Origin: a virus | DNA length: 64,000 nucleotides | Reading direction: 5' to 3' (one strand) | IMG/VR virus record: IMGVR_UViG_3300033121_000981 | Span: 1 to 64,000 of that record | Shown: positions 2,513 to 46,377 of the stretch, one piece after another | How the letters are laid out: each line of letters begins with the position of its first letter | Position numbering within the stretch: the stretch's first letter is position 1 | Made by a program: the position numbers and the translations under genes | The notes under the pieces: generated by a model | The model's database searches: none | What the model saw: the letters and a program-made list of their open reading frames with translations, nothing else | What the model was told of the DNA's origin: nothing

Positions 2513-3151
2513 CTATAGGCATTTATATTGTTCTTGCTTTGTATTATATTCTAATTCGTATTTATCTAAACTATCTTTCCATTGTTTAATATTCCTAACT
2601 ACTGATGTCATAGGAAGAGAATATTTATCTGCAATAGCTTCGTATCCAAAACCGTTTACCCTATCCTCACACATAGCTCTCATTATTTCTGGTGTTATTT
2701 TAGGAGGACGACCAAACAGCTTCCCTTCAGCCTTAGCTCTAGCTAATCCAGAGTTAGTACGCTCAATAATAATATTACGTTCTAGCTCCGCAGCAGCAGC
2801 CATTACAGTAATAATCATTTTACCCATCGAACTAGTAAGGTCAATACCATCAAATTGTAATACTCTAAGTTTAATCTTGAGACGTTTAAACTCATCGATA
2901 GTGTGCAAAATATCTGAAGCTGTACGTCCAAGCCTGTCTACCATTGTACATATGCAAGTGTCTCCAGCCTTAGCTTTCTCCATCATGGATGAGAAAGCAG
3001 GGCGTTCTAAAGCTTTAATGGAACCTGAAACACCCTCTTCAGCATACCATTCATCTACAGCATACCCTGCATTCGTAATTTCTAATTTTTGATTTTCTGT
3101 AGTTTGACCTTTTTTAGTTGTGCTGACGCGCAGGTATGCAAATATTGTCAT
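2513..3151 (-). CDS. small serine recombinase (resolvase/invertase family) with C-terminal HTH
   Basis: N-terminal YLRVSTxxQ catalytic-serine motif, DRLGR, 212 aa. Confidence 0.9.
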   Translation of the reverse strand: MTIFAYLRVSTTKKGQTTENQKLEITNAGYAVDEWYAEEGVSGSIKALERPAFSSMMEKAKAGDTCICTMVDRLGRTASDILHTIDEFKRLKIKLRVLQFDGIDLTSSMGKMIITVMAAAAELERNIIIERTNSGLARAKAEGKLFGRPPKITPEIMRAMCEDRVNGFGYEAIADKYSLPMTSVVRNIKQWKDSLDKYELEYNTKQEQYKCL

Positions 3152-4944: not shown

Positions 4945-5151
4945 TTAATTGTCACAGTAGATATCTTCAAAATAAGATTTTGCTTTTTCTACAATATCTT
5001 TCATATCTTTAGTTCTGTTCTCATACTGCATTAAAGCAAAATTTACAGAAATGACTTCAGGCTTTTGTTGAAAATCATGCCAAGATTTTGGGTGCAACTT
5101 TTGAGAATTTGATTTTATTGTCTCTCTGACTAATTTTTGAGTGATTTTCAT
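4945..5151 (-). CDS. hypothetical early protein
   Basis: ORF track; promoter cassette copy just upstream. Confidence 0.5.
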   Translation of the reverse strand: MKITQKLVRETIKSNSQKLHPKSWHDFQQKPEVISVNFALMQYENRTKDMKDIVEKAKSYFEDIYCDN

Positions 5152-5176
5152 TTTAAATTTACCTTTCTGATTAATT

Positions 5177-5257
5177 TAAACAATATAGATAGTATATACA
5201 CGTTTATTTATTAAATCAAGAATTATTTTCACTTTTTAAAATTGCTTCTAAATCAAT
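5177..5257. repeat. about 80-bp direct repeat, left copy flanking the GC-rich island; includes a duplicated 3' end of gene 5793-6230 (..LEAILKSENNS)
   Basis: about 93 percent identical to 5753-5834. Confidence 0.7.
5191..5219 (-). promoter_or_regulatory. early promoter cassette copy 1, TTGATT-17-TATACT
   Basis: one of five near-identical cassettes ATATACACGTTTATTTAATAAATCAAG. Confidence 0.6.
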
Positions 5258-5406
5258 AATTTTCATTTTATAATCCTTTTATAAGTTAATTAATAAAACA
5301 ATATCAAACAAATTTACGCCAACCATTTTTACAACGTTTGTCTCGTTTAAATCCAAGTTTTGCAGCTGCTATGATGACCAGTGCATCAAATTCAGGGAGT
5401 GGCGGT

Positions 5407-5619
5407 TCATGCTTGCACCACCTTCGCAAAGTTCGGCACGGTGCCTGGAACAAACCCAGCGACACGGAAAGAATGAAAACCGGCGGCACTTGCGGCGGCT
5501 TTCACCTTTTCGATGTTTTTGGCGGCTTTGTCAGTCACGGGGAAGCAAGCGAGTAAATCTTCCATATAGTCGCGGGTTTCGCCGCGCTTCAGTCCATAAA
5601 TGAGAATTTCGGGTTTCAT
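5407..5619 (-). CDS. moron ORF in GC-rich island, 70 aa; the open frame continues in a second frame (5304-5489), so possibly a frameshifted or longer gene
   Basis: GC-rich third codon positions unlike the rest of the phage; RBS AAGGA; own consensus promoter upstream. Confidence 0.5.
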   Translation of the reverse strand: MKPEILIYGLKRGETRDYMEDLLACFPVTDKAAKNIEKVKAAASAAGFHSFRVAGFVPGTVPNFAKVVQA

Positions 5620-5658
5620 GTGTCAGTCCTTTACGTTTACGGGTTATTGATAGGTTCT

Positions 5659-5686
5659 ATTATAACACAGTGGGTTTAATTGTCAA
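5659..5686 (-). promoter_or_regulatory. consensus sigma70 promoter TTGACA-16-TGtTATAAT inside the GC-rich island
   Basis: perfect -35 and extended -10, read on minus strand, about 40 nt upstream of the island ORF. Confidence 0.6.
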
Positions 5687-5752
5687 GCACTTTTTGACAC
5701 ACTGGGTAAAATTCCCAACTTGTACGCAAAAATCGCGGCGTCCCGTTCTTCT

Positions 5753-5834
5753 TTAAACAATATAACTATTATATACACGTTTATTTAATAAATCAAGAAT
5801 TATTTTCACTTTTTAAAATTGCTTCTAAATCGAT
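5753..5834. repeat. about 80-bp direct repeat, right copy flanking the GC-rich island; contains early promoter copy 2 (TTGATT-17-TATAAT at 5768-5796)
   Basis: matches 5177-5257. Confidence 0.7.
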
Positions 5835-6182
5835 ATCTGTTGTTATCATCTCAACATGCATTATGTATAATGTACACCACAAATCAATCTCACCTTTTTC
5901 GAATTTGTTGTAATTTTCCGCGGAAATTTTATGACACTCAAATGCTTTTAATTGTAGCACCTGAACATCGATTCTACCTAAATCATCGCACGAGTTTAAC
6001 AATATATCATCACGCGTACAATTAAATTCTTCTTGCAATTTTTGTAATAATTTTGTTATTGTGCTTGCCTTTATGTCAATCTTTCCCCATTCATGTAATG
6101 TTTCACCGTAGCAACCTTCCAAATATTTATCTTTTTCTGAGATAGCATGGTAATCATTTATTACATAATATTTAATAGCCAT
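5793..6182 (-). CDS. hypothetical early protein, about 130 aa from Met MAIKYY
   Basis: ORF track; stop codon overlaps the -35 of promoter copy 2. Confidence 0.55.
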   Translation of the reverse strand: MAIKYYVINDYHAISEKDKYLEGCYGETLHEWGKIDIKASTITKLLQKLQEEFNCTRDDILLNSCDDLGRIDVQVLQLKAFECHKISAENYNKFEKGEIDLWCTLYIMHVEMITTDIDLEAILKSENNS

Positions 6183-6268
6183 GTTATAGCCCCCCTGTTT
6201 TAATAATATAAACCACCACAACAGGCACAAAAATTATAGCACCAGCAATCATCCCTTCAAAGAATGTT

Positions 6269-6469
6269 TTAATGTTTTTCATTTTTAAATCCATATTTCG
6301 TAGCAATGAATAATTCTTTACCAGTCAATTCTCGATTAGCACTTATTTGATTTGCTTTTTCTCGAATATATTTGCCAGCAATAGCCTCACAACACAATTT
6401 TTCTACGCTTGTGTGACACGCTCGCAGTTCTAATTGTAAATCATTATATAAATTAATAATGATACTCAT
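6269..6469 (-). CDS. hypothetical early protein
   Basis: ORF track; degenerate promoter cassette upstream. Confidence 0.45.
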   Translation of the reverse strand: MSIIINLYNDLQLELRACHTSVEKLCCEAIAGKYIREKANQISANRELTGKELFIATKYGFKNEKH

Positions 6470-6570
6470 GTCGACACCCCTTAAAGTTAATCATTCAATA
6501 CAGAGTATTATATATAAAATAAACACTAATGTAAACAATATAAGAATTATATCACAAATTTAGCGTTGTT

Positions 6571-6810
6571 TTACATACGTACTTCTATTGTAAACTTCAT
6601 ACATCCGTTTGTATATTCTATATAATAACCAGTATCGTACAAAGAGCTTCCGCAAGATTCATCAATTTTTCTTAATTTTGTTTTTTGACAAAATCCAAAT
6701 TCGTATCTAAAATCTTTGAAATTTGTTGAAGTTATTTTTCTGCCGCAAATATTTCTCATAAAGAGAAAACAATCATAATTTTTAAGATAAAAATTAATAT
6801 TATTTTTCAT
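6571..6810 (-). CDS. hypothetical early protein
   Basis: ORF track; promoter copy 3 upstream. Confidence 0.55.
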   Translation of the reverse strand: MKNNINFYLKNYDCFLFMRNICGRKITSTNFKDFRYEFGFCQKTKLRKIDESCGSSLYDTGYYIEYTNGCMKFTIEVRM

Positions 6811-6846
6811 TTCATTACCTTTCTAATTAATATAAACAATATAGAT

Positions 6847-6875
6847 AGTATATACACGTTTATTTAATAAATCAA
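6847..6875 (-). promoter_or_regulatory. early promoter cassette copy 3, TTGATT-17-TATACT
   Basis: sequence match to the other copies. Confidence 0.6.
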
Positions 6876-7109
6876 GTATTTTCTTTATAAATTCCTTTAT
6901 CATTCTCATTTTTCCATTCCTTGCAAAAAAGCCTTGACAAACTTTTAAATTGCACTATTCCAGAATGTTTTGTGATGACAACATAATAAGCACCTTGTTT
7001 TTTAATTTCGTAGAATTCTTTATTGTCAAGCATTTTCTTTTCCTAAATTTACATTATTTAATACTAAAATTCGATAATTTTTCGCAGTAATTCTGCGCGT
7101 GTTTTTGTT

Positions 7110-7406
7110 TTATTCGCCATTCTCTTCCTCTTTTTTATCAAAATCTTTTAATTCCATGTCAAGCAAATAATGTTTTATAAACATTGGTTCTATTGTATAA
7201 AGCAATTCTGTGAGATTTTTAAGAAAATTAAAATAGTCCTTTTTTTCAACTAAACCACCTTTATTAATCTCAAACAATTGCATTAAATACTCACGTATTA
7301 AATGCAATTGTTTTTGTTGGTTATCAATAATGCAACGCTTCGCTTGTTCTTCAGTTGAAAATAAATCATTACAATTATTAATTTTATATATAATAAATTT
7401 TTTCAT
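7110..7406 (-). CDS. hypothetical early protein
   Basis: ORF track. Confidence 0.55.
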   Translation of the reverse strand: MKKFIIYKINNCNDLFSTEEQAKRCIIDNQQKQLHLIREYLMQLFEINKGGLVEKKDYFNFLKNLTELLYTIEPMFIKHYLLDMELKDFDKKEEENGE

Positions 7407-7729
7407 TTTAATAATTCCTCAATTCGTTCTAAAAATATAATATCCTTGATTGTCTCTTCCATTCCTTCTCGATAAATTGTTTCTATTGAATCGTATGAAA
7501 TTATACGATATTTATTTCCATCGAAATCAAACGTAAAATCGTCAAAATTATTGGCACCTTCTAAGTCGATCAGCGCAATATATAAATCATCAATATCAAA
7601 ATCTCCTATATAGTGATGCTCTTTAATAATCGATGATAAAATTGTTATTGTATCGTCATCTATATTATCGTTTGAGTAATAATTTGATAAACCTGCTCTA
7701 ATATACTCTGTTATTTCTGTTACATTCAT
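7403..7729 (-). CDS. hypothetical acidic early protein
   Basis: ORF track; Asp/Glu-rich. Confidence 0.55.
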   Translation of the reverse strand: MNVTEITEYIRAGLSNYYSNDNIDDDTITILSSIIKEHHYIGDFDIDDLYIALIDLEGANNFDDFTFDFDGNKYRIISYDSIETIYREGMEETIKDIIFLERIEELLK

Positions 7730-7753
7730 TTTTTAATTTTCTCTCTCTATTTA

Positions 7754-8182
7754 TTAATAATCTTGCAATAATTCCCTAATATTATCAATTTCTTTTTGTG
7801 TAAACACTTTTAGTAACTGTTTACCAATGTTGCAGCATTGTTTATATATGTTGAACGCGTGTATCGAATCGCTATCATATCCAAAATTACTACACCAATT
7901 TTCAAAACTCTCATCAAGCGATGTAGCATCCCAAACCAAACTATGTAAAACATCTGAATTTTTAGGTCTAACAGGCCTAGAAACCCCATATTTAAATTGT
8001 TTGCGAAGCCCGACTCCGGTGAAATAATTAAACATTTCCATCGCGTAGCCATTATTTGTTCTAATTATCACGTTCCATTGGTCGACAAAACTTTTCTTAT
8101 CACCCCAAGGTGAAGGCACTTCACCAACAAAATATATCTTTATTAAATCTGTGTTATCTATATCTTCAATCGAATTAAACAT
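7754..8182 (-). CDS. hypothetical early protein
   Basis: ORF track; promoter copy 4 upstream. Confidence 0.6.
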   Translation of the reverse strand: MFNSIEDIDNTDLIKIYFVGEVPSPWGDKKSFVDQWNVIIRTNNGYAMEMFNYFTGVGLRKQFKYGVSRPVRPKNSDVLHSLVWDATSLDESFENWCSNFGYDSDSIHAFNIYKQCCNIGKQLLKVFTQKEIDNIRELLQDY

Positions 8183-8215
8183 TCTTATATCCTCTTAAAA
8201 TTAAACAATACAAAC

Positions 8216-8244
8216 ATTATATACACTTTTATTTATTTTGTAAA
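8216..8244 (-). promoter_or_regulatory. early promoter cassette copy 4, TTTACA-17-TATAAT
   Basis: sequence match. Confidence 0.55.
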
Positions 8245-8786
8245 GAATTATTAACATAATATAAAGCATCCCCATTTTGTTTTACAGCTTCTAAACATAT
8301 TTCTTCTGTTTGTTCCTTAACATACCATAAAGCATAACCATTTTGTTTAACAGCTGCTAAACATATTTCTTCTGTTTGTTCCTTAACATACCATAAAGCA
8401 TAACCATTTTGTTTAACAGCTGCTAAACATATTTCTTCTGTTTGTTCCTTAACATCCTTTAAAGCATAACCGTTTTGTTTTACAGCTTCTAAACATATTT
8501 CTTCTGTTTGTTCCTTAACATGCTCTAAAGCATAACCGTTTTGTTTTACAGCTTCTAAACATATTTCTTCTGTTTGTTCCTTGACATCCTTTAAAGCATA
8601 ACCATTTCGTTTAACAGCTTCTAAACATATTTCTTCTGTTTGTTCCTTAACACACTCTAAAGCATATCCGTTTTGTCTAACAGCTGCTAAACATATTTCT
8701 TCTGTTTGATTCTCAACATACTTTAAAGCAAACCCCTCTTGTTTAACAGCTGCTAAAGCCTCTTGTTCATTAGTGAAATATTTCAT
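8229..8786 (-). CDS. DUF4116-type tandem-repeat protein, about 8 x 20-aa repeats (EQTEEICLEAVKQNGYALKDVK)
   Basis: obvious 20-aa periodicity; 60-bp DNA repeats. Confidence 0.8.
   Translation of the reverse strand: MKYFTNEQEALAAVKQEGFALKYVENQTEEICLAAVRQNGYALECVKEQTEEICLEAVKRNGYALKDVKEQTEEICLEAVKQNGYALEHVKEQTEEICLEAVKQNGYALKDVKEQTEEICLAAVKQNGYALWYVKEQTEEICLAAVKQNGYALWYVKEQTEEICLEAVKQNGDALYYVNNSLQNK
8270..8770. repeat. about 8 tandem copies of a 60-bp unit, coding and in frame, inside CDS 8229-8786
   Basis: near-identical copies, e.g. TTGTTCCTTAACATACCATAAAGCATAACCATTTTGTTTAACAGCTGCTAAACATATTTCTTCTG. Confidence 0.8.
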
Positions 8787-8822
8787 TTTTTAACATTCCC
8801 GTTTAAATTAAACAACACAAGT

Positions 8823-8851
8823 ATTATATACACGTTTATTTAATAAATCAA
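8823..8851 (-). promoter_or_regulatory. early promoter cassette copy 5, TTGATT-17-TATAAT
   Basis: sequence match. Confidence 0.6.
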
Positions 8852-9267
8852 GCATTATTCAATTTATTTCTATGTTTATGAGAAGCACCAATTTTAGCCG
8901 CGCACATTGTCACAGCTGCTACAGTGCGCCCCAATTGTCTAGCACACTCAACCCTGCCAAGAATTTTATAATTTCCTTTCAAGAAAATTATCTCATCATC
9001 TTTCCATTTTGTGCTATTTGTTAAATTAACAAAATTTTGACATTTTCCTGCTTTTCGCATCGCATTGCGCTGGTTTGTTAATTTTTCAATCGCGCCAATT
9101 TGCATTAAATAATGTGGCAAATTATAACTAGAAAGCCAATTTTCTAGCATACTGATATCGGTGCGTAATAATTTAGCAGCGTGCTCATTGCTGTATTCAA
9201 TTTCAGAAATTAATTTTTGAAGCTTTTTACTAAAATCTATCATTTCATTTTCCTTTGTTTTGTCCAA
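8848..9267 (-). CDS. hypothetical protein, possible C-terminal HTH
   Basis: ORF track. Confidence 0.5.
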   Translation of the reverse strand: MDKTKENEMIDFSKKLQKLISEIEYSNEHAAKLLRTDISMLENWLSSYNLPHYLMQIGAIEKLTNQRNAMRKAGKCQNFVNLTNSTKWKDDEIIFLKGNYKILGRVECARQLGRTVAAVTMCAAKIGASHKHRNKLNNA

Positions 9268-9455
9268 AAAGGATCAAAAGCGAATGGGCATTCGTACATC
9301 ATGCGCCCGTCAATATTGCTTATAAAAGTACTTCGTGCTTGGTTTTTGTGCCGCTTCAAAATCTCGCGGGTTTTTTGTGTTGCTGGAAAGTAAAGATCTG
9401 ACTGCCAATTACTGCACTCAATACCCGCTGCAATCAAGTCTTCATAAATTGTCAT
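9240..9455 (-). CDS. hypothetical protein
   Basis: ORF track. Confidence 0.45.
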   Translation of the reverse strand: MTIYEDLIAAGIECSNWQSDLYFPATQKTREILKRHKNQARSTFISNIDGRMMYECPFAFDPFWTKQRKMK

Positions 9456-9780
9456 TTTTAGTTCCTTTCAAAATTAATTAATAGAGTAGATATTATTACA
9501 TACAGAATAAATATGTACAACATATTTTTAAGAATTTATGAAAATAATTTATAAAATGTTATCAATAAATACATAAAACGATTTAAACGGCCCATATTCA
9601 ATTTAAATATTTACCCTAACCCTACTATTAAATTTATTTTTAAATCGATTATAGAGCGTTTTGACAAGCCTATTTTAAGTATGTATTGTATAAATTACAT
9701 TTAATAATTTTCTTGACAAAATGCGAAATATATGATGCATGCAAACTATAAGCGTGTGTCCCGCCAGGGACCATGCAAAC

Positions 9781-43795: not shown

Positions 43796-44202
43796 AATGT
43801 TGCTGCCAGAATGAATAGATCATCAAGCTGAGTTTCTGATAACCCTAATTTAGTGGATATAGATTTTACAAATGATTTATGCCTGTCTACAGTGTTACTA
43901 AATTCCCATTCAATCCTGGCAGCATCGCCTTCTACCCCACTCATAGTAGATATAGCATTATTAACCGTAGTAAGAAGACCTGCTGATAATAAAGCAAGGC
44001 GTGCTTGTCTCATAGTGACAGATTCTGGTACTATTTTAATAATCTCTGGTTCAGGTTTTTTTGTGATAGAACCATTAGGATTAACAGTATCACCTATACT
44101 CCCACCTATACTAGCATCTACTAGGTTTGGAATTACGTCTAGGGAATCTACTTCAATAGTGTTTAGAATTTCCCCTAATTCATTTAATTGATGAGCTTTC
44201 AT
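43792..44202 (-). CDS. hypothetical protein (tail fiber assembly?)
   Basis: position downstream of the fiber gene. Confidence 0.4.
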   Translation of the reverse strand: MKAHQLNELGEILNTIEVDSLDVIPNLVDASIGGSIGDTVNPNGSITKKPEPEIIKIVPESVTMRQARLALLSAGLLTTVNNAISTMSGVEGDAARIEWEFSNTVDRHKSFVKSISTKLGLSETQLDDLFILAATL

Positions 44203-44204
44203 AT

Positions 44205-45839
44205 TTATGCGATTCCTTTAATAATTGCTACACCATTAGCGCCTGCGCCACCAGCACCAGAGTTGTTGCCATTAACAGAGCTACCACCACCTCCACCAGC
44301 ACCACCAGGGAATCCTCCATTACCGCCTGCTGTAGCAGCTACAGTAGCTGAACTACCTCCACCGGCTCCAGAAGTTCCACACAAATTATCTGATGAAGCT
44401 GCTGTTCCATTTCCACCTGCTGTTGGGCTTGTACCACATGTTCCTCCTGTAGAGCCAGCTACACCGCAGCTACTACCAGAATTTCCCCCTCTTGTAGGAA
44501 ATGTATTAGATGCAGTTAGATGTCCTCCTACACCACCACCGCCAACGCCTCGTAATGAATCTCCTGCTGTAACAGCAGACGTGGTGGATAAATCCATAGT
44601 GCCACTTCCAGCCCCACCCCATTCAGAATTACCACCACTTGTACCTCCGCCACTACTGCCATAGCTACTAGCAGCACCGCCCTCTCCTATATTGTCAACT
44701 GTGGTAGTGCTGTTACCAGCGCCAAAACTATTATACCTAGGTGCACCACCATAAGCACTGTTGGTATTGCTTAAACTTGAACCTTGTCCTAACAACCCAG
44801 AGCCAGAGGTTTTAGTTTGTACACCTCCACCACCAACACCTGCACAACCACCATAGGCCGTTACTAAACTGCCGAATGTTGTATTACCACCAGCAGTACC
44901 TGTGTTCCCATTAGTAGAGTCTACTGTAACAGCAGCACCACCACTACCTCCACTACCAATTGTTACTGTTGTAGAGCTACCTGCTGTGATGTTTCTTAAG
45001 TTCCTTTTAATTCTAGCTGGAGCACCACCAGGAGCACCACCTGCATTAGCGCTACCACTAGCTAATCTAGCACCACTCCCACCGCCGCCACCTGCACCAA
45101 CTAAATCCACTTCAATTTCTGTGTATCCTGGTGGGTGAATATAAGTTGCTGTTGATGTAACTTTATAGTAGAATGGACTGACAACAATTGATGTGAAAGC
45201 TGTTCCATTACACTGGATTAGACGTGCTTCACCTGGATAAATATTATAGCTAGTTAAACCATCAATTAACTCAGACGAGTCAGGATCAACCGTGATAATC
45301 CCTGTCCCTGAGTTTCTGTACCAGCACCACCACCCATTTAATAGTGTTGTAGCAGCTGTAAATGTTTGTGTAAATGTACCAGAAGTGACATCAATAAATG
45401 TACCGTTGTCTGTTAACCCCAGAATAGTATTACTTGTTCGTGTAGAACGTAGTAAACTTACGTTAAACACAGGCGACCAGTTTGTACTATCTGCTGATGG
45501 GTCTGTAGTACCAGCACCAGATGTTTTACGTTTGTATGTTTGGTAGTTGCTAGGGCTATATACGTTAGCTCCAGCAGAGTATGTTGTACCACTAACCCAT
45601 AGTGTAACATTAGCTGTCGCTAATGCGGCAGCAGCAGAGGCAGCAGCAGCATTCTGTGAATCAGTAGCAGATGTAGCTGCTGACGATGCTGTAGTTTGTT
45701 TTGTAGACACATCTGTAGCTAATGCATTAGCTTCTGTAACAAAAGTAGGGAGAGCTGCAACAAAATTATCTGCGTTAGTAATAAATGTTGCTGCTGATTG
45801 ACTCCTACTAGGGGCTGTTGGTAATGGAGTTATTGCCAT
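44205..45839 (-). CDS. glycine-rich tail fiber protein
   Basis: C-terminal GGxGG-type Gly-rich repeats; N-terminal Ala/Thr-rich region. Confidence 0.7.
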   Translation of the reverse strand: MAITPLPTAPSRSQSAATFITNADNFVAALPTFVTEANALATDVSTKQTTASSAATSATDSQNAAAASAAAALATANVTLWVSGTTYSAGANVYSPSNYQTYKRKTSGAGTTDPSADSTNWSPVFNVSLLRSTRTSNTILGLTDNGTFIDVTSGTFTQTFTAATTLLNGWWCWYRNSGTGIITVDPDSSELIDGLTSYNIYPGEARLIQCNGTAFTSIVVSPFYYKVTSTATYIHPPGYTEIEVDLVGAGGGGGSGARLASGSANAGGAPGGAPARIKRNLRNITAGSSTTVTIGSGGSGGAAVTVDSTNGNTGTAGGNTTFGSLVTAYGGCAGVGGGGVQTKTSGSGLLGQGSSLSNTNSAYGGAPRYNSFGAGNSTTTVDNIGEGGAASSYGSSGGGTSGGNSEWGGAGSGTMDLSTTSAVTAGDSLRGVGGGGVGGHLTASNTFPTRGGNSGSSCGVAGSTGGTCGTSPTAGGNGTAASSDNLCGTSGAGGGSSATVAATAGGNGGFPGGAGGGGGSSVNGNNSGAGGAGANGVAIIKGIA

Positions 45840-45894: not shown

Positions 45895-46377
45895 ATGACA
45901 CAAGACGAATTAAAAGAGAAGATGCACTACGACCCTGAAACAGGAGTTTTCACTAGAATCAATCATTACTATAAAGGCCCGACAGGAACTAAGACACATC
46001 GTGGGTATATTGACATTAGTATTAAATACAAGAAATGGGCTGCTCATAGACTAGCTTGGTTGTACGTCTATGGTTATTTACCAGAACATCAAGTTGACCA
46101 TATCAATGGAATCAGAGATGACAATCGTATTTGTAATCTTAGGGAAGCTAAAGCTATAGACAACTTGAGAAATTCTGGAATACGTTCTGATAATACTTCT
46201 GGAATTAAGGGTGTTTCTTGGCATAAAGGTTATAATAAGTGGCAAGCTGTCGCCAGTTTAAACGGTAAACTACACCATTTAGGTATTTTTGAAGATAAAA
46301 TGCTGGCGGCAGAAGCTTATCAAAAATTTGCTAAGACACACCACGGAGAATTTTACAAAGAACCTAAGCCACTTTGA
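45895..46377 (+). CDS. HNH-AP2 homing endonuclease (opposite strand, between fiber genes)
   Basis: HRLAWLYVYGYLPE...VDHINGIRDDNRICNLR; AP2-like GIKGVSWHKGYNKWQA. Confidence 0.85.
   Translation: MTQDELKEKMHYDPETGVFTRINHYYKGPTGTKTHRGYIDISIKYKKWAAHRLAWLYVYGYLPEHQVDHINGIRDDNRICNLREAKAIDNLRNSGIRSDNTSGIKGVSWHKGYNKWQAVASLNGKLHHLGIFEDKMLAAEAYQKFAKTHHGEFYKEPKPL

What the first reader, a model, noticed from the sequence alone, without database searches (positions are those of the whole stretch)
5177..5834. GC-rich moron island with consensus promoter, inserted between 80-bp direct repeats
Roughly 5258-5752 has visibly higher GC and GC-rich third codon positions (ctg aag cgc ggc gaa acc cgc...), unlike the rest of this AT-rich phage. 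It carries its own perfect TTGACA-16-TGtTATAAT promoter (5659-5686, minus strand), an AAGGA RBS, and a 70-aa ORF whose reading frame continues in a second frame (5304-5489), so it may be frameshifted. The island is bracketed by two ~80-bp direct repeats (5177-5257 and 5753-5834, about 93 percent identical). Each repeat consists of the 3' end of gene 5793-6230 plus an early promoter cassette. The left copy keeps a duplicated gene tail (MKIIDLEAILKSENNS). This looks like recent acquisition of a host-type expression module, with the repeated promoter cassettes as the recombination substrate or the resulting target duplication.
Basis: seen in the sequence. Interest (0 to 1): 0.75.

Follow-up and report, generated by a model that had tools for sequence, protein, structure and literature searches.

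The report
Foreign phage gene cassette inserted between promoter repeats
An AT-rich phage has picked up a small, self-promoted early gene from an unrelated GC-rich phage lineage; this is an ordinary "moron"-type gene transfer, but the patchwork structure is unusually easy to read and the gene's protein family is not in Pfam or PHROGs.

Summary
Window 5259-5751 is a 493-bp insert. Its 5331-5751 part has 41-55% GC against about 28-30% around it. It sits between two 84-nt direct repeats (5175-5258 and 5752-5835, 94% identical) and carries a perfect TTGACA-16-TGtTATAAT promoter, an AAGGA ribosome-binding site and a 70-aa ORF.

- Four related contigs (three lineages) have one copy of the repeat and no insert, so this is a gain in the window's lineage.
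- The source is not the host. Promoter, RBS, ORF and the first six codons of the next gene (5393-5691) match the early operon of uncultured ~36-kb, ~54% GC podophages.
- The ORF is not frameshifted. Nearly all close homologues are 68-70 aa, dN/dS is 0.05-0.1, and there is no drift towards AT.
- The "second frame" is the last 29 codons of a 72-aa gene that sibling phages carry about 4 kb away.
- The insert is therefore a patchwork with at least four joins that lack extended homology, placed in a variable early region full of repeated promoter cassettes (PeSL-like, but without terminators).

The protein has no Pfam or PHROG family and a confident beta-beta-alpha-beta model. The domain also occurs inside a DarA-like protein of a Dar (anti-restriction) operon. 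An early counter-defence role is inferred, not shown.

The parts
5793..6182 (-). Native 129-aa early gene upstream of the insert. The longest ORF would start at a TTG at 6230; the ATG at 6182 matches the homologues.
   Evidence: homologues P0121-P0123 are 80-88% identical and 128-132 aa long. No Pfam or PHROG family.
5752..5835 (-). Upstream copy of the 84-nt direct repeat. It holds the last 14 codons (including the stop) of the 129-aa gene plus promoter cassette 5754-5796 (-35 TTGATT 5791-5796, -10 TATAAT 5768-5773). Its allele resembles L006/L007.
5692..5751 (-). Segment a: 60 nt, GC about 0.48, immediate source unknown. It contains an ACCCAGTGTGT motif, where many donor phages have an ACCCAATGGGT palindrome upstream of the -35.
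   Evidence: no match in the fetched donor loci, in the relatives or in IMG/VR.
5659..5686 (-). Imported sigma-70 consensus promoter, TTGACA-16-TGtTATAAT. It starts 67 nt upstream of the ATG, as in the donor phages.
   Evidence: In one search, 43 of 64 distinct donor upstream regions have TTGAC[AT]-N15-19-[TG]ANNNT starting 59-87 nt before the ORF.
5627..5631 (-). AAGGA ribosome-binding site, conserved in donor phages as GTAAAGG.
5407..5619 (-). Intact 70-aa ORF from a family absent from Pfam and PHROGs. The model is beta-beta-alpha-beta. It keeps all 23 invariant residues of the close family.
5393..5410 (-). First six codons (MNRHSL) of the next donor gene, a 48-aa gene that overlaps the 70-aa ORF's stop by ATGA. 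Donor homology ends at 5393.
5291..5392 (-). Segment c1: the last 29 codons, the stop (5304-5306) and a few more bases of the native 72-aa gene P0273. Sibling phages L060 and L061 carry that gene at the locus equivalent to window 9264-9475. Identity is 89-92% in DNA and 100% in protein from FDAL onward.
5259..5290 (-). Segment c2: AT-rich, resembling the transcribed leader of a promoter cassette, with a Shine-Dalgarno sequence and ATG AAA ATT. Joined to the repeat it creates the 16-aa mini-ORF 5216-5266.
5175..5258 (-). Downstream copy of the 84-nt repeat: duplicated gene tail plus promoter cassette 5177-5219 (-35 TTGATT 5214-5219, -10 TATACT 5191-5196). Across the stretch aligned with L009 (from ATTGATTTAG to TTGTTTAAA) it is identical to L009's single copy. 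It keeps a promoter in front of the 68-aa gene.
4945..5151 (-). Native 68-aa gene. In the relatives it directly follows the single cassette.

Best explanation
Window 5259-5751 is a moron-type insertion: a complete small expression unit (strong sigma-70 promoter, RBS, 70-aa gene) that an AT-rich phage took from an unrelated lineage of ~36-kb, ~54% GC podophages. In those phages the same promoter-gene unit lies in the early operon, usually directly behind such a promoter.

The insert is a patchwork of three kinds of DNA:
- podophage DNA at 5393-5691, probably extending to 5751;
- the 3' end of a native 72-aa gene from a sibling phage at 5291-5392;
- a cassette-leader-like stretch with a start codon at 5259-5290.

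I infer that the foreign DNA first joined the AT-rich lineage at or next to that 72-aa gene. It was then moved to its present site by recombination inside the variable early region, where about 43-nt promoter cassettes recur every 0.6-1.3 kb. The final event duplicated 84 nt (the tail of the 129-aa gene plus the cassette). As a result the insert and the downstream 68-aa gene each keep a cassette promoter in front. No terminator separates them, so the 70-aa gene should be transcribed from both the cassette promoter and its own promoter, early in infection.

Shown here: absence from relatives, donor homology and its limits, intactness of the ORF, purifying selection, no compositional drift, and the mosaic joins. 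Inferred: the order of events, promoter activity, and function.

For function, I take the most likely role to be an early-acting effector against the host, probably counter-defence. The gene is early in the donor phages, travels with its own strong promoter, and the same domain is built into a DarA-like protein in an Hdf / DarA / DarB-like operon.
For: Insertion:
- L006, L007, L009 and L010 have the 128-132-aa gene, then one cassette, then the 68-aa gene.
- The window aligns to L006 up to 5752 and again from 5258, with an 84-nt overlap in L006 coordinates. Nothing in the relatives matches 5259-5751.
- L010 is the outgroup to the window, L006/L007 and L009.

Donor:
- The family search found 296 homologues; nearly all of the best 120 are 68-70 aa.
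- They lie in contigs with a P22-type portal, DNA polymerase A, DUF5906 and PAPS reductase.
- 46 IMG/VR loci and 40 metagenome loci were fetched, with mean GC 0.54.
- DNA homology is confined to 5393-5691.
- The promoter lies at the same distance from the ORF in the donors.

Intact and recent:
- dN/dS is 0.05-0.10.
- Third-position GC is 0.557 against a donor mean of 0.562, and base changes run equally in both directions.

Mosaic: P0273, L060 and L061; the cassette-like leader.

Cassettes. No terminator.

Function hints:
- A profile search finds 161 clusters, some as domains of larger proteins.
- P0133 combines DarA_N, MutS_I and this domain, which is 51% identical to the window protein over 63 aa.
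- P0133 sits between an Hdf-like gene and a DarB-like gene.
- Polyvalent-protein background comes from PMC5512222.
Against: - The immediate donor is not in any collection searched. The best DNA identity is 88% and covers the ORF only.
- The source of segment a (5692-5751) is unknown.
- The order of recombination events is reconstructed, not observed.
- The allele difference between the two repeat copies could come from gene conversion among cassettes rather than from two parental genomes. L006 itself carries the L009-type cassette at a neighbouring locus.
- The functional hint rests on one Dar-type fusion. Contexts of the other fusions are uninformative.
- No reads are available to confirm the assembly.
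Confidence: 0.75

Rival explanations
1. The island is ancestral in this phage lineage, and the relatives lost it by homologous recombination between the two 84-nt repeats.
For: Recombination between direct repeats would leave exactly the single-copy structure seen in L006, L007, L009 and L010. Deletions are common in this region, for example in L009.
Against: The outgroup L010 and both inner lineages lack the island, so at least two independent losses would be needed against one gain. The ORF shows no drift towards the phage's 30% GC. A duplicated gene tail cannot be the original state.
Confidence: 0.08
2. The insert is an assembly or amplification chimera and is not present in any real genome.
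For: The window and its proteins are not on record in the contig collection. No reads are available. Repeats can mislead assemblers.
Against: The joins share only a few bases, not k-mer-length overlaps. The insert is flanked collinearly on both sides. One piece (5291-5392) comes from the same phage lineage with only synonymous differences. The two repeat copies differ at 5 sites, so the path through them is unambiguous.
Confidence: 0.05
3. The module comes from the bacterial host chromosome.
For: The sigma-70 consensus promoter and a GC content near 50% are typical of many bacteria.
Against: All homologues with context are on phage-like contigs. Two scans of 185,579 species genomes gave one hit, on a 2.6-kb phage-like contig of a betaproteobacterial MAG. 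There is no match in E. coli genomes.
Confidence: 0.04
4. The 70-aa ORF is the front half of a frameshifted gene of about 105 aa.
For: A second frame stays open from 5489 to 5304.
Against: Nearly all close homologues end at residue 68-70 with the same ATGA overlap. The tail of the second frame belongs to the unrelated 72-aa protein P0273. No homologue has this extension.
Confidence: 0.01
5. The island is a transposable element and the repeats are its target-site duplication.
For: Direct repeats flank the insert.
Against: The duplication is 84 nt long. There is no transposase, no terminal inverted repeats and only 493 bp of cargo. The repeat copies carry different pre-existing alleles.
Confidence: 0.02

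Closest known systems
Morons (moron-accretion model of Hendrix and colleagues, as summarised in PMC3594210 and in the discussion of PMC2839356)
   Same: A single extra gene with its own promoter sits between two genes that are adjacent in relatives. It has deviating base composition and was acquired horizontally, apparently by illegitimate recombination.
   Different: There is no terminator of its own. It is co-oriented with the surrounding operon. The source is another phage's early operon, not a host gene. Whether this phage is temperate is unknown, so the classic benefit to a lysogen cannot be claimed.
PeSL mobile regulatory cassettes of T4-type phages (Arbiol et al. 2010, PMC2839356; PMC4122927)
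   Same: Repeated sigma-70-like early promoter cassettes lie in a variable region of small genes without known homologues. Gene gains and losses between close relatives occur at cassettes. The inserted unit ends up flanked by two cassette copies, as expected after integration of a cassette-bearing circle or after unequal exchange.
   Different: The cassettes here have no stem-loop terminator. The duplicated unit extends 41 nt into the upstream gene, so it is locus-specific and not only a cassette. The inner joins use only a few bases of homology. Mini-circles were not and cannot be tested here. The phage is not T4-like; its closest cultured DNA polymerase is that of Pseudomonas phage vB_PsaM_M1, at 42% identity.
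Phage P1 Dar anti-restriction proteins and phage polyvalent proteins (Iyer et al. 2017, PMC5512222; PMC12810830)
   Same: The 70-aa domain occurs at residues 464-526 of P0133, a 923-aa protein with DarA_N and MutS_I domains. P0133 is encoded between an Hdf-like DarA_N gene and a DarB-like gene of more than 2,600 aa that combines an N6-methyltransferase with an SNF2 helicase.
   Different: The window protein is a stand-alone 70-aa early gene product, not a virion-packaged multidomain protein. The domain is not among the Pfam LPD or DarA families. No activity is known.

Membership tests
Moron | Extra gene present between two genes that are adjacent in related phages | tested here: met
   L006, L007, L009 and L010 have one cassette and no insert at this site.
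Moron | Own promoter | tested here: met
   A perfect extended -10 consensus promoter, conserved in position in donor phages. This is met at sequence level only; activity was not tested.
Moron | Own transcription terminator | tested here: not met
   No terminator-like site in 5100-5900. Folds of 5262-5410 and 5687-5760 are no better than shuffled sequence.
Moron | Base composition different from the surrounding genome | tested here: met
   GC 0.49-0.55 against about 0.28-0.30; third-position GC 0.55 against 0.18-0.30.
PeSL-type mobile regulatory cassette | Repeated sigma-70-like early promoter motif in a variable region of small genes | tested here: met
   Four to six cassette copies in window 5177-8851, and the same cassettes in relatives.
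PeSL-type mobile regulatory cassette | Stem-loop terminator adjacent to the promoter | tested here: not met
   No G+C-rich hairpin in or next to the 84-nt unit.
PeSL-type mobile regulatory cassette | Insertions and deletions between close relatives bounded by cassettes | tested here: inconclusive
   This insert is flanked by two cassette copies, and the L009 deletion has one edge just after a cassette's -10. Other edges and the inner joins are not at cassettes.
PeSL-type mobile regulatory cassette | Extrachromosomal mini-circles formed between neighbouring cassettes | not testable with these tools
   This needs outward-facing PCR or reads from infected cells or virions.
Transposable element with target-site duplication | Transposase and/or terminal inverted repeats, with a short fixed-length duplication | tested here: not met
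   No such ORF or terminal inverted repeats; the duplication is 84 nt.
Polyvalent-protein-associated / Dar-linked domain | Domain found in the same polypeptide as known early-effector domains | tested here: met
   P0133 has DarA_N, MutS_I and this domain, in an Hdf / DarA / DarB-like operon. This is a single clear case.
Polyvalent-protein-associated / Dar-linked domain | Match to a curated DarA, LPD or other Pfam/PHROG family | tested here: not met
   The window protein matches no family. Of 80 family members, one gave a marginal Pfam hit and one a marginal PHROG hit.
Polyvalent-protein-associated / Dar-linked domain | Anti-restriction or other counter-defence activity | not testable with these tools
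   This needs plating assays on hosts carrying defence systems.

The most novel reading that the evidence does not exclude
The 70-aa protein would define an undescribed and widespread phage effector domain. It has 161 clusters at 50% identity, no Pfam or PHROG family, a confident beta-beta-alpha-beta model and no specific structural neighbour. It would act at the very start of infection against a host defence such as restriction. Phages would deliver it in two ways: as the product of an early gene, or as a module of virion-packaged DarA-like or polyvalent proteins. Its benefit would be general enough that a phage of 30% GC captured it, promoter included, from phages of 54% GC.
Probability: 0.3. 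Interest if true: 0.6.

Novelty: new member of a known kind. Interest (0 to 1): 0.35.

Why it matters
The mechanism is not new. Morons and cassette-mediated shuffling are established ideas. The value lies in the detail. Every piece of this 493-bp insert except about 90 nt can be traced to a source. That shows a foreign early gene entering a phage lineage by joins with almost no homology and then being moved within a promoter-cassette region. The duplication left the downstream gene with its promoter.

It also shows gene flow between phages that differ by about 24 percentage points in GC. Such phages must therefore meet in one cell.

Finally, it flags a conserved small protein family under strong purifying selection that is absent from Pfam and PHROGs. 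The family is linked once to a Dar anti-restriction operon and is a reasonable candidate for counter-defence screens.

Tried and rejected
- DNA searches of the region and of the island against GenBank phages (near and distant modes) and E. coli genomes found no match.
- A protein search of the 70-aa product against GenBank phages found no match.
- Exact look-ups of the window's 70-aa and 129-aa proteins found neither on record.
- A relative of the 129-aa gene was sought in IMG/VR and none was found.
- Segments a and c were sought in IMG/VR, by exact DNA and by back-translated peptide, with 0 hits. The b/c1 junction was sought in metagenomes, with 0 hits.
- The second-frame peptide gave nothing significant by tblastn against donor loci.
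- The first structure model, built from close homologues only, was poor (pLDDT 62). It was replaced by a model from a deeper alignment (pLDDT 93).
- Contexts of other multidomain carriers (P0129, P0182, P0268) were uninformative.
- RNA folds of the island ends showed no structure beyond shuffled sequence.
- Readings rejected: frameshifted gene, transposon with target duplication, host origin, and assembly chimera. The reasons are given under the rival explanations.

Full report
**1. The observation**

- In 200-nt windows, GC rises from 0.18-0.30 in the flanks to 0.485-0.545 at 5300-5599.
- The 300-nt window 5351-5650 (GC 0.503) is the second highest in the 64-kb window. It lies about 4.5 sd above the mean of the early region.
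- The GC-rich part is 5331-5751. The stretch 5259-5330 is AT-rich, with GC 0.18.
- Two 84-nt direct repeats, 5175-5258 and 5752-5835, are 94% identical. A third, partial copy lies at 6831-6914.
- On the minus strand there is a 12/12 TTGACA-16-TATAAT promoter with a TG extension at 5686..5659. It is one of two perfect sites in the window, where 0.15 are expected.
- AAGGA lies at 5627-5631 and a 70-aa ORF at 5407-5619.
- Third-position GC of the ORF is 0.55, against 0.18-0.30 in neighbouring genes.

**2. The genome and the repeats**

The window is a tailed phage of about 30-34% GC. It encodes a tape-measure protein, a DnaB-type helicase, DNA polymerase A, a lysozyme, an RNA ligase and a resolvase. 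No GenBank phage matches it at DNA level. The closest cultured DNA polymerase belongs to Pseudomonas phage vB_PsaM_M1, at 42% identity.

Each 84-nt repeat has two parts. The first is the last 14 codons (including the stop) of the upstream 129-aa gene. The second is a 43-nt cassette, TTGATTTAWTAAATAAACGTGTATATAMTAKYTATATTGTTTA, which is a sigma-70-like promoter followed by a conserved leader. The cassette occurs four times on the minus strand, and its core occurs six times, between 5177 and 8851. None are expected by chance.

**3. It is an insertion**

The 129-aa protein has three homologues. Their contigs (L006, L007, L009, L010) all show the same order: a 128-132-aa gene, one cassette, the 68-aa gene, then the 111-aa gene. 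In the alignment the relatives have a single repeat copy and nothing that corresponds to 5259-5751.

By BLAST the window follows L006 up to 5752 and resumes at 5258. The two matches overlap by 84 nt in L006 coordinates. L010 is the outgroup to the window, L006/L007 and L009. One gain is therefore more parsimonious than two or more losses.

**4. Where the gene came from**

- The 70-aa protein has 296 homologues. Nearly all of the best 120 are 68-70 aa long.
- Those with context lie in contigs of about 36-38 kb and about 54-56% GC. These contigs encode a P22-type portal, DNA polymerase A, a DUF5906 primase and PAPS reductase, so they are uncultured podophages. Their closest record is a Manatee Spring Caudoviricetes genome.
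- 46 IMG/VR loci and 40 metagenome loci were fetched.
- DNA similarity to the window covers only 5393-5691. That span holds the promoter, the leader with GTAAAGG, the ORF and the first six codons (MNRHSL) of the next donor gene, which overlaps by ATGA just as in the donors.
- In 43 of 64 distinct donor upstream regions, a TTGAC[AT]-N15-19-[TG]ANNNT promoter starts 59-87 nt before the ORF. In the window the distance is 67 nt. The promoter therefore came in with the gene.
- The best DNA identity is 88% (L005, L062), so the immediate donor has not been sampled.
- The family is absent from GenBank phages. In 185,579 species genomes it appears once, on a 2.6-kb phage-like contig of a betaproteobacterial MAG. 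Host origin is therefore not supported.

**5. The ORF is not frameshifted, and the transfer is recent**

The window protein keeps all 23 invariant residues of the close family. Against the nearest homologues dN/dS is 0.05-0.10. Third-position GC (0.557) equals the donor mean (0.562), and changes relative to the donor consensus run equally in both directions. The copy is intact and has not drifted towards the recipient's composition.

**6. The "second frame"**

A search with the second-frame peptide found one protein, P0273 (72 aa). Its last 28 residues, FDALVIIAAAKLGFKRDKRCKNGWRKFV, are identical to the window peptide. P0273 is encoded in L060 and L061. These are siblings of the AT-rich phage, and they carry the gene at the locus equivalent to window 9264-9475. 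At that locus the window has an unrelated 71-aa gene.

So 5291-5392 is a captured 3' end of a native gene from a sibling genome, 89-92% identical in DNA. The join to the podophage DNA, at 5392/5393, shares only about 3 bases (CCC).

The last 32 nt of the insert (5259-5290), together with the bases just before them, resemble the leader half of a promoter cassette plus a Shine-Dalgarno sequence and ATG AAA ATT.

Segment a (5692-5751) matches nothing. It has donor-like GC and an ACCCAGTGTGT motif at a position where many donors have ACCCAATGGGT.

**7. Mechanism**

The insert has at least four joins without extended homology, so several illegitimate recombination events built it. The native-gene fragment shows that the foreign DNA was already in the AT-rich lineage, at or beside the 72-aa gene, before it reached the present site.

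The last step duplicated 84 nt. The two copies differ at 5 sites. At 4 of these the upstream copy has the L006/L007 allele, and at all 5 the downstream copy has the L009 allele. This fits one of three routes:
- an unequal exchange between two co-infecting variants;
- integration of a repeat-bearing circle;
- later gene conversion among cassettes.

These routes cannot be separated here.

There is no transposase and there are no terminal inverted repeats. No terminator lies in 5100-5900. The ORF should therefore be transcribed from the cassette promoter at 5796..5768 and from its own promoter. The duplicated cassette at 5219..5191 keeps the 68-aa gene promoted. Promoter activity is inferred from sequence and conservation only.

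**8. Function**

- The protein matches no Pfam or PHROG family. Of 80 diverse family members, one gave a marginal Pfam hit and one a marginal PHROG hit.
- A profile search finds 161 clusters at 50% identity. Most are 62-70 aa stand-alone proteins, but some are domains of larger proteins.
- P0133 (923 aa) carries DarA_N, MutS_I and this domain, which is 51% identical to the window protein over 63 aa. It is encoded between an Hdf-like DarA_N gene and a DarB-like gene of more than 2,600 aa that combines an N6-methyltransferase with an SNF2 helicase. That is the layout of phage P1's Dar anti-restriction system and of phage polyvalent proteins (PMC5512222).
- Other fusions have recurrent K/R-x-N-P linkers and no known domains.

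An early effector role, probably counter-defence, is the best guess. It rests on position, mobility and one fusion.

**9. Comparison and verdict**

The insert meets three of the four moron criteria tested and lacks a terminator. It resembles PeSL-mediated shuffling of T4-type phages (PMC2839356) in its repeated promoter cassettes and its flanking copies. It differs in lacking stem-loops, and its inner joins are not cassette-mediated.

It is a new member of a known kind. It is a well-resolved example rather than a surprise. The main follow-up value is the unannotated 70-aa domain.

Noticed in passing
window 8251-8757, inside ORF 8229-8786 (-): A 66-nt tandem repeat with 7.7 copies at 91% identity. 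It encodes DUF4116 repeats (Pfam E = 1e-56) in an early-region gene.
   Followed up: partly
window 44200-45100: A second GC-rich stretch (about 0.50, the highest in the window). It lies in ORF 44205-45839 (-), which matches the Pfam glycine-rich domain Gly_rich_2. Strong G excess on the coding strand suggests that glycine codons, not foreign origin, explain it. It was not compared with relatives.
   Followed up: partly
window 45895-46377 (+): An HNH_3 plus AP2 ORF resembling a homing endonuclease. It lies on the opposite strand, between tail-module genes.
   Followed up: no
window 9240-9455 (-) versus L060 1273-1491: At one locus the window has a 71-aa gene, whereas sibling contigs L060 and L061 have an unrelated 72-aa gene (P0273). 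This is a straight gene replacement. The 3' end of that 72-aa gene is the piece found inside the island.
   Followed up: yes
L009 1218-1250 versus window 6330-6848: L009 lacks about 520 bp, which in the window holds the 79-aa and 66-aa genes. One deletion edge falls directly after the -10 of a promoter cassette and the other inside the 66-aa gene.
   Followed up: partly
donor loci such as L015, L017, L028 and L013, upstream of the 70-aa gene; window 5664-5674 and 5698-5708: Many donor phages carry the palindrome ACCCAATGGGT in the promoter spacer, and several also carry it upstream of the -35, which looks like an operator. The window has ACCCACTGTGT and ACCCAGTGTGT at the same two places, so the palindrome is broken in the same way twice.
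   Followed up: no
proteins P0129, P0130, P0137, P0182 (loci L059, L102): Multidomain proteins that contain the 70-aa domain have recurrent K/R-x-N-P motifs between domains and a shared N-terminal PAQIAAR.KFAE motif. These may be processing sites of virion-packaged proteins. They remain unexplained.
   Followed up: no
L057 6963-18772: An Hdf-like DarA_N gene, a DarA_N + MutS_I + 70-aa-domain gene, and a DarB-like gene of more than 2,600 aa (N6-methyltransferase plus SNF2 helicase) that carries a LAGLIDADG insert. Together they form a P1-like Dar operon in an uncultured 36.7-kb contig.
   Followed up: partly
window 2513-3151 (-): A serine recombinase (Pfam Resolvase), conserved in relatives L006, L009 and L010, near the early region. 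Its role (lysogeny, inversion or other) was not examined.
   Followed up: no
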